A DNA stretch of 64,000 nucleotides, taken from Eledone cirrhosa. Its lineage: Eukaryota. Positions 8,084 to 9,086 of the stretch are shown piece by piece (within the stretch, counting starts at the first letter, position 1; every line of letters begins with the position of its first letter). A program made the position numbers and the translations under genes. The notes under the pieces were generated by a model, which was given only the letters and a program-made list of their open reading frames with translations, searched no databases and was not told where the DNA came from. The DNA lies in NCBI GenBank assembly GCA_964016885.1, contig OZ024743.1, positions 282,162,001 to 282,226,000 of the forward strand, written 5' to 3'.

Positions 8084-9086
8084 TATAAATATATATATAT
8101 ATATATATATAAATATATATATAAATATATATATAAATATATATATATATATATAAATATATATATAAATATATATATATATATATATAAATATATATAT
8201 ATATATATAAATATATATATATATATATATATAAATATATATATAAATATATATATATATATAAATGTATATATAATGTATTTTGCAATACACATTTTTA
8301 ATTTCTGCCTGACCAACAATCGCTCTGTATAATCAGCTCCTGATTATTTACTAGAATTCTATAAGAATATAACATCAGTAATCTCAGTAGACAGGAGGGG
8401 TAGTTAGCCTTGATAAGCTTCAACAAAAGCGAAACAAGACCCTTGTCGGCTTATCTCCCCTGTTTTCTGAGATTAAAGTAAGTGAATTTGTCACTACTCT
8501 AAAACAATAGCATACGGTCTTCAAAATGCTTTTAATTAAGCATAATGTGTATTGCAAAATACATTATATATACACCCATATATATATTGCTATTTCAGAG
8601 CTCCAATTCTAATATATATAAATATATATATATATATAAATATATATATATATATATAAATATATATATATATATATATATATATATATATATATATATA
8701 AATATATATATATATAAATATATATATATATAAATATATATAAATATATATATATATATATATATAAATATATATATATATATATAAATATATATATATA
8801 TATATATATAAATATATATATAAATATATATATATATATATATAAATATATATATATATATATATAAATATATATATATATATATATATATATATATAAA
8901 TATATATATATATATATATAAATATATATATATATATATAAATATATATATATATATAAATATATATATATATATATATATATATATATATACATATACA
9001 TATATATATATATATATATATATATATATATTTATATATATATATATATATAAATATATATATATATATATATATATATATATATA
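8084..9086. repeat. (AT)n microsatellite tracts interrupted by the HHR insert at 8266-8611
   Basis: long TA runs with periodic AAA interruptions. Confidence 0.95.
8406..8451 (+). ncRNA. type I hammerhead ribozyme, U3-A8 core variant
   Basis: AGCC-TTGATAA-GCTT(caacaa)AAGC-GAAA-CAAG(acc)CTTG-TC-GGCT; GUC cleavage triplet; stem I extends (aatctcag/ctgagatt, acagg/cctgt). Confidence 0.85.

What the first reader, a model, noticed from the sequence alone, without database searches (positions are those of the whole stretch)
8266..8611. 345-bp element with 31-bp inverted repeats carrying a complete U3-A8 hammerhead
Seen: TGTATATATAATGTATTTTGCAATACACATT at 8266-8296 is inverted at 8544-8574. Between them is AGCC-UUGAUAA-stem II-GAAA-stem III-GUC-GGCU, with stem I extending through internal loops (aatctcag/ctgagatt). 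Established: C3-G8 is a tertiary pair in the HHR core, and U3-A8 is the compensatory variant. Inference: two coordinated core changes plus three intact helices argue for a selected, active ribozyme rather than decay.
Basis: partly seen in the sequence, partly recalled or inferred. Interest (0 to 1): 0.75.

Follow-up and report, generated by a model that had tools for sequence, protein, structure and literature searches.

The report
Penelope-type retrozyme with U3-A8 hammerhead
This is one copy of a young, roughly 318-base non-coding repeat with about a thousand units in this animal genome; it carries a rare variant of a predicted self-cutting RNA, and its inverted repeat is not a transposon end but likely the footprint of a Penelope-type jumping-gene enzyme copying the RNA from both sides of a DNA break.

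Summary
The sequence facts hold: a perfect 31-bp inverted repeat (8266-8296/8544-8574) and a complete type I hammerhead motif with U3-A8 (8406-8451). The framing does not. The real unit is a ~318-nt monomer (8295-8612); its 27-nt core occurs 1,066 times in the genome, often in head-to-tail tandems. The inverted repeat is a short 5'-truncated antisense arm of variable length. In 40 of 42 two-armed insertions, one outer end carries a ~25-35-nt tail and the other lacks it, inside (TA)n: the Penelope-like element (PLE) signature. U3-A8 is fixed in this family, so it is inherited, not covarying among copies. Sister subfamilies carry C3-G8 or U3-A8, and 16 of 25 helix/core pairs change on both sides, which supports selection on the fold. 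U3-A8 is already reported in Schistosoma PLE hammerheads, and one mutational scan found only the G-C swap active, so the ribozyme may be slow. Cleavage, expression and the helper element are not shown. The scan found this two-armed retrozyme kind before on other DNA of this genome. Verdict: new member of a known kind (metazoan non-LTR retrozyme).

The parts
8266..8296 (-). Short antisense arm (5' inversion): copy of 8544-8574 ending near the tail-less end; not a terminal inverted repeat
   Evidence: 31/31 match; in other insertions this arm ranges from tens to hundreds of nt with a fixed outer end
8294..8296 (.). 3-nt overlap (ATT) shared by the two arms at the inversion junction
   Evidence: sequence against tandem junctions; junction overlaps of a few nt are common in the family
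8295..8612 (+). One full retrozyme monomer, 318 nt here (316-320 in the family), non-coding
   Evidence: tandem periods; public contigs join 8612 back to 8296 with one T between
8379..8475 (+). Long outer stem extending hammerhead stem I through internal loops
   Evidence: fold z -4.36; 7 of 12 counted pairs change on both sides across subfamilies
8406..8451 (+). Type I hammerhead motif, U3 (8410) - A8 (8415); predicted cleavage 3' of C8447; near-palindromic stem III
   Evidence: motif scan, positions, Rfam HH9 23.5 bits below gathering, covariation
8478..8483 (+). GTAAGT, splice-donor-like motif (suggestive only)
   Evidence: GTAAGT or GTGAGT are the two commonest states, 192 and 59 units; absent in 310/311-nt subfamily B; no spliced DNA copy found
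8575..8612 (+). PLE-type tail: present at this end, absent from the inverted arm; contains a conserved acceptor-like TTTCAG (8593-8598)
   Evidence: 40 of 42 two-armed insertions have one tailed and one tail-less end; same in subfamily B; tail definition in PMC8557442 and PMC11167929
8085..8265 (.). (TA)n target microsatellite, left flank
   Evidence: sequence
8613..9086 (.). (TA)n target microsatellite, right flank
   Evidence: sequence; 54 of 56 tailed ends in the family abut a TA run

Best explanation
This is one insertion of a ~318-nt non-coding tandem repeat family carrying a type I hammerhead motif with a fixed U3-A8 core, and it was likely integrated into a (TA)n microsatellite by the reverse transcriptase and endonuclease of an unidentified Penelope-like element. 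Shown: unit, copy number, two diverging 5'-truncated arms, tail asymmetry, TA target, compensatory helices. Inferred mechanism: tandem copies are transcribed; the hammerhead cuts multimers after C17 and the monomer closes into a circle (or the multimer stays uncut); the PLE protein nicks both strands of AT-rich DNA and starts cDNA at two fixed internal sites ~25-35 nt apart, one per strand; the two cDNAs stop at random places and join by a few nt of overlap. Here one cDNA ran a full unit and the other only 31 nt, which mimics terminal inverted repeats. The window copy itself is a lone monomer with one hammerhead and is probably a dead-end insertion.
For: 1,066 cores; on contig C1, 97 entered core positions fall in 51 insertions and all 22 with cores on both strands have outward-facing 3' ends. 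Tail asymmetry 40 of 42 (binomial p 2e-10 against 0.5). 5' ends are spread over the whole unit; 88 of 100 arms cross the cleavage site and 62 of 100 exceed one unit (sample biased to long arms), so templates were circles or uncut multimers. Median identity 98.2% in 71 distinct monomers: young. 92.7% of cells paired and 16 of 25 pairs changed on both sides, slid controls 40-48%; ribozyme and stems are more diverged between subfamilies (0.3-0.5) than flanks (about 0.2 among A and C) yet stay paired. PLE tail, inversion and TA bias: PMC8557442; two internal start sites and cutting of both strands in vitro: PMC11167929; retrozymes as PLE derivatives: bioRxiv 10.64898/2026.07.22.740005.
Against: No helper found: two abundant PLE families were checked (25 and 20 loci; 34,772 and 51,959 candidates) and neither shares sequence with the unit beyond TA runs and the adjacent retrozyme copies. 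Only 1 of 100 arms ends at the predicted cleavage site, so the DNA gives no direct trace of cleavage. Only 9 of 142 rare variants in arm overlaps are shared by both arms. Nearest-neighbour folding favours a core-masked fold in typical copies (core-open probability 0.004; 0.17 in the window copy). A hammerhead-less 163-nt array has the same tailed end at one locus. In the retrozyme preprint 8 of 9 tested dimers did not cleave.
Confidence: 0.85

Rival explanations
1. Same PLE-mobilised element, but the template is an uncut linear multimer and the U3-A8 hammerhead is slow, protein-dependent or dispensable for mobility; no circle is needed.
For: 88 of 100 arms cross the cut site and 1 of 100 ends there; hammerhead mutants did not affect insertion by the anole PLE in vitro and that ribozyme needed protein (PMC11167929); only the G-C swap of this pair was active in one scan (PMC9901934); hammerhead-less array L216.
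Against: Core and helices are kept by compensatory change across subfamilies up to ~40-50% diverged in that region, so the fold matters to spread; the hammerhead-less array is confined to one locus. A circle explains the same crossing.
Confidence: 0.35
2. The unit is the detached terminal repeat (pLTR) left by 5'-truncated insertions of an autonomous PLE, not an independently replicating RNA.
For: PLE insertions are mostly 5'-truncated with tandem or inverted pLTRs; U3-A8 is known from PLE hammerheads (PMC4209133).
Against: Units join head to tail with no ORF between them, up to 6 in L051 and more in L079 and L245; none of 69 mapped loci continues 5' into a shared coding sequence.
Confidence: 0.08
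3. A MITE or other non-autonomous DNA transposon with 31-bp terminal inverted repeats that carries a hammerhead as cargo.
For: Perfect 31-bp inverted repeat and TA flanks in this copy.
Against: The inverted arm has variable length, the element extends 38 nt beyond the right arm, copies are 5'-truncated and tandem, and the ends are asymmetric.
Confidence: 0.02
4. Satellite or minisatellite DNA spread by recombination at DNA level, with a decayed hammerhead.
For: Tandem arrays exist; local expansion by unequal crossover is proposed for retrozyme arrays.
Against: Dispersed small insertions on many contigs with two fixed 3' ends and random 5' ends; compensatory RNA helices.
Confidence: 0.04

Closest known systems
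Metazoan non-LTR retrozymes (Cervera and de la Pena 2020, PMC7229834; Li, Clavereau and Pollet 2026, bioRxiv 10.64898/2026.07.22.740005)
   Same: Small AT-rich non-coding unit within the 170-400 nt range, one type I hammerhead per unit, tandem and solo copies, PLEs in the same genome.
   Different: U3-A8 core fixed in a ~1,000-unit family; 5-bp near-palindromic stem III and a very long stem I extension; regular two-armed insertions with tail asymmetry, which the passages read do not describe; expression and cleavage untested; no matching pLTR found.
Penelope-like elements, EN+ clades (Craig et al. 2021, PMC8557442; Frangieh et al. 2024, PMC11167929)
   Same: 5' truncation, partial tandems, inverted 5'-truncated copy, tail at one end only, (TA)n bias, hammerhead upstream of the start sites.
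   Different: No RT or GIY-YIG ORF; full-size hammerhead instead of a minimal one; clade of the helper unknown.
U3-A8 hammerheads of Schistosoma mansoni Cercyon PLEs (Cervera and de la Pena 2014, PMC4209133) and natural variants in Perreault et al. 2011 (PMC3088659)
   Same: Same compensatory swap of the 3-8 core pair, about 1,300 hits in S. mansoni.
   Different: Those are minimal, heterogeneous, mostly single motifs; here the variant sits in a homogeneous young family with close sister subfamilies of both states.
310/311-nt C3-G8 retrozyme of the same genome (subfamily B; earlier scan notes e1-8668911 and others)
   Same: Homologous flanks, tail motif and end asymmetry.
   Different: Canonical core, 2-bp stem III, long arrays, no donor-like motif.

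Membership tests
Metazoan non-LTR retrozyme | Type I hammerhead motif in each unit | tested here: met
Metazoan non-LTR retrozyme | Small (about 170-400 nt), AT-rich, non-coding unit | tested here: met
   316-320 nt; about 36% GC from base counts; no ORF of 150 aa other than frames through the TA run
Metazoan non-LTR retrozyme | Head-to-tail tandem copies plus dispersed monomers | tested here: met
   29 of 51 C1 insertions hold 2 or more cores; six units in L051; the window copy is a monomer
Metazoan non-LTR retrozyme | Self-cleavage in vitro | not testable with these tools
   needs transcription assay
Metazoan non-LTR retrozyme | Expression as linear and circular RNA | not testable with these tools
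   no RNA holder listed
Penelope-like element (mobilisation signature) | 5' truncation with inverted copy and a tail at one end | tested here: met
   40 of 42
Penelope-like element (mobilisation signature) | Insertion bias for (TA)n or AT-rich DNA | tested here: met
   54 of 56 tailed ends; 47 of 53 tail-less ends, the latter inflated by the element's own TA run
Autonomous Penelope-like element | RT plus GIY-YIG ORF | tested here: not met
   no ORF in the unit
Non-autonomous derivative of a named PLE | Sequence shared with the pLTR of a resident PLE | tested here: inconclusive
   two PLE families checked, no match; other families not examined
MITE / TIR DNA transposon | Fixed terminal inverted repeats at both ends of uniform copies | tested here: not met
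MITE / TIR DNA transposon | Target-site duplication | tested here: inconclusive
   cannot be read inside (TA)n
Hammerhead ribozyme, type I | Conserved core and three helices | tested here: met
   all core positions present with the 3-8 pair as U-A
Hammerhead ribozyme, type I | Rfam gathering score | tested here: not met
   23.5 against 52 bits for HH9
Hammerhead ribozyme, type I | Loop 1 - loop 2 tertiary contact | tested here: inconclusive
   internal loop in stem I and invariant AA in loop 2 are present; the contact itself was not modelled

The most novel reading that the evidence does not exclude
Nearly every insertion is a twin-primed event: one PLE complex starts two cDNAs at two fixed sites of one small RNA circle, one on each DNA strand. 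The U3-A8 core is a deliberately slowed ribozyme that lets circles survive as templates, and the pair has flipped between C-G and U-A more than once in this lineage. The two start sites straddle a conserved 3' splice site, so only unspliced RNA can be copied, which would explain why Penelope elements keep their introns.
Probability: 0.15. Interest if true: 0.68.

Novelty: new member of a known kind. Interest (0 to 1): 0.4.

Why it matters
It removes a tempting false lead (a DNA transposon with a ribozyme) and gives a natural series of closely related retrozyme subfamilies that differ at the catalytic 3-8 pair, ready for side-by-side cleavage tests. The strict one-tailed, one-tail-less pattern is genome-scale support for the two internal start sites seen in vitro for one Penelope element, and suggests that each is used on a different DNA strand. 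The kind of element and the core variant are both in print, and this scan has noted the two-armed pattern several times in this genome, so the gain is moderate.

Tried and rejected
Terminal-inverted-repeat reading: rejected. Covariation of 3-8 inside the family: none to see, the state is fixed. Repeated independent flips of the pair: not shown; a tree with the ribozyme columns needs 8 changes per label (103 of 174 monomers used, 72 near-identical family A rows left out, 13 mismatch rows as a third group), but without those columns 3 changes, and well-supported branches allow one. The Fisher p of 3e-6 ignores relatedness. A-to-I editing scars: not seen among rare substitutions in 71 monomers (A>G 15, T>C 15, C>T 21, G>A 18). 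Spliced DNA copies: 0 matches; uninformative, since splicing would remove a start site. Helper search: two PLE families, no shared sequence; a tail-variant pattern gave only more retrozyme subfamilies. Expression: no RNA holder listed; contigs of a second organism covered only the flanks, not the hammerhead. One search used a mis-indexed structure and is void; one search is the corrected count. In some searches the reference unit was one base short at the junction, which does not affect the counts near the cut site. The primary paper on 3-8 exchanges (PMC1986816) is not held. A paper search with retrozyme, hammerhead and two taxon words returned nothing on this family among the 15 listed.

Full report
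Observation. 8266-8296 is the exact reverse complement of 8544-8574 and cannot be extended. A type I hammerhead motif lies at 8406-8451 with U3=8410, A8=8415 and C17=8447. It sits on a long stem (z -4.36). Rfam HH9 scores 23.5 bits, E 0.0013, under its threshold of 52.

The family. A DNA search of the 3.0-Gb genome gave 207 matches from 38 scored of 1,237 candidates, at 88-100% identity. The 27-nt core pattern allowing C or U at 3 and G or A at 8 has 1,066 exact matches, control 0, and all 100 listed are U3-A8. Patterns for other letters gave 4 non-U3 and 1 non-A8 matches and no C3-G8. Tandem spacing is 316-320 nt; public contigs join 8612 to 8296 through one T, so the window unit is 8295-8612, 318 nt. 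Seventy-one distinct monomers are a median 98.2% identical to the column majority. On contig C1, 97 entered core positions group into 51 insertions, so the genome holds several hundred insertions (extrapolation is inference).

The inverted repeat is a 5' inversion. I mapped 69 loci (29 best hits, 40 regions taken from the C1 list) on a natural tandem. Most have two arms whose 3' ends face outward and whose 5' ends are truncated at scattered places. The outer ends are of two kinds: at the end of the unit (tailed), or ~25-35 nt earlier, at the unit's own short TA run (tail-less). Of 69 loci, 17 had one arm, 10 had an unclassifiable end, and 42 had two classifiable ends; 40 of these 42 have one of each kind (two loci, L064 and L065, look like duplicates). 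54 of 56 tailed ends abut a TA run. All 22 C1 insertions with cores on both strands have the outward orientation. The window copy fits: a full tailed arm and a 31-nt tail-less antisense arm, joined through ATT. Craig et al. (PMC8557442, passages) describe this layout for PLEs: inverted 5'-truncated copy, 30-40 bp tail at one end, (TA)n targets. Frangieh et al. (PMC11167929, parts 1-2 of 4) show in vitro that a PLE protein cuts and extends both strands of AT-rich DNA and starts at two internal RNA sites whose distance is the tail.

Is the hammerhead selected? Within the family the question cannot be answered, because U3-A8 is a founder state. Relatives answer it. A 311-nt sister array lies beside one copy (L014) with a canonical core; further subfamilies came from loose ends (17 and 479 pattern matches). 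Among 91 loci scanned, 64 cores were parsed: 28 C3-G8, 26 U3-A8, 4 C3-A8, 2 U3-G8 and 4 others; in subfamily C alone 28, 12, 4 and 2. On 14 hand-picked representatives, 92.7% of cells pair, 16 of 25 pairs change on both sides, the 3-8 pair is U-A in 9 and C-G in 5 with no mismatch, and slid controls pair 40-48% (rows were chosen with intact cores, and related rows are not independent). The ribozyme and stems diverge faster between subfamilies than the flanks while keeping pairing. Stem III is palindromic or nearly so in every subfamily, the feature that allows dimeric hammerheads (PMC4209133, passages). How often the pair flipped is open: 8 changes with ribozyme columns, 3 without, one not excluded.

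Is it active? Not shown. U3-A8 is known in nature: about 1,300 hits in Schistosoma PLEs (PMC4209133) and several cases in Perreault et al., who cite in vitro activity (PMC3088659, passages; the cited paper is not held). A pairwise scan of a type III hammerhead found only the G-C swap active at this pair (PMC9901934, passages). Secondary-structure energies put the active fold 0.7 kcal/mol above the minimum in the window copy and 2.8 in a typical copy, where the U3-U4-G5 strand can pair with stem III (tertiary contacts are not counted). 88 of 100 arms run through the cut site, 62 exceed one unit, and 1 ends exactly at it (the sample favours long arms). The templates were therefore circles or uncut multimers, not cut linear monomers. 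Nine rare variants are shared by both arms of an insertion and 133 are in one arm only, modest support for one template per event.

Mechanism. Inferred: transcription of tandem units, hammerhead processing to a monomer circle or survival as a multimer, capture by a PLE protein, nicking of both strands in (TA)n, cDNA synthesis from the tailed site on one strand and the tail-less site on the other, and joining of the truncated ends by short overlaps. I put 0.85 on the identity as a PLE-mobilised retrozyme; circle against uncut multimer is about 55:35. The helper is unidentified: PLE families next to two copies are abundant but share no sequence with the unit.

A side lead. A donor-like GTRAGT at 8478 and an acceptor-like TTTCAG at 8593-8598 are conserved in subfamilies A and C; the acceptor lies between the two end sites, and a similar motif lies in the tail of an unrelated PLE. 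Subfamily B lacks the donor, no spliced DNA copy exists, and no RNA run is listed. Splice-site consensus is from my own knowledge. It stays a hypothesis.

Comparison and novelty. The element meets the sequence criteria of metazoan non-LTR retrozymes (PMC7229834, passages; bioRxiv 10.64898/2026.07.22.740005, parts 1-3 of 5); cleavage and circular RNA are untested. It fails as a MITE and as an autonomous PLE. Five paper searches listed no description of this family or of strict tail asymmetry in retrozymes, but the library lacks most subscription journals. Earlier notes of this scan report the same two-armed pattern for other families in this genome and an aged copy of a 318-nt U3-A8 repeat; none matched this unit by sequence or place. 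My reading was formed before those look-ups. Verdict: new member of a known kind, interest 0.40.

Noticed in passing
L216:~870-1540 (G000 C1 near 56078400-56079000): Four tandem 163-nt units of a related subfamily with the whole hammerhead deleted, ending in the normal tailed end at (TA)n; found at this one locus only.
   Followed up: yes
L245 (G000 C1 268924000-268932000): Long, older array of ~319-nt U3-A8 units with a different stem II, interleaved with ~197-nt units that lack the hairpin, as if reverse transcription skipped it at a short repeat.
   Followed up: partly
L014:1-950 and G000 C2 362124603-362129374: A two-armed array of identical 311-nt C3-G8 units lies about 550 bases from a U3-A8 insertion.
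   Followed up: partly
window 10880-11170 and 11430-11700: Other hammerhead-like motifs at 10983(-), 11076(+) and 11553(-), canonical core with long stem II, in a two-armed TA-flanked element unrelated to this family.
   Followed up: no
window 21589 (-): Hammerhead-like motif with long stem II in an AT-rich repeat also seen in L004 and L030.
   Followed up: no
window 15300-16758 (-), 18739-19596 (+), 34639-35394 (+): Fragments of Penelope-like ORFs; 18739-19596 has a Pfam GIY-YIG match; the first belongs to a very abundant family with no visible canonical hammerhead at its 3' end.
   Followed up: partly
L188-L212: Abundant PLE family with a minimal hammerhead-like motif after the ORF, two 3' ends about 60 nt apart at (TA)n, and an acceptor-like motif in its tail that runs into the next ORF in L199.
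   Followed up: partly
window 44746-44803 (-): Partial tRNA-like match, 31.7 bits, probably a SINE head.
   Followed up: no
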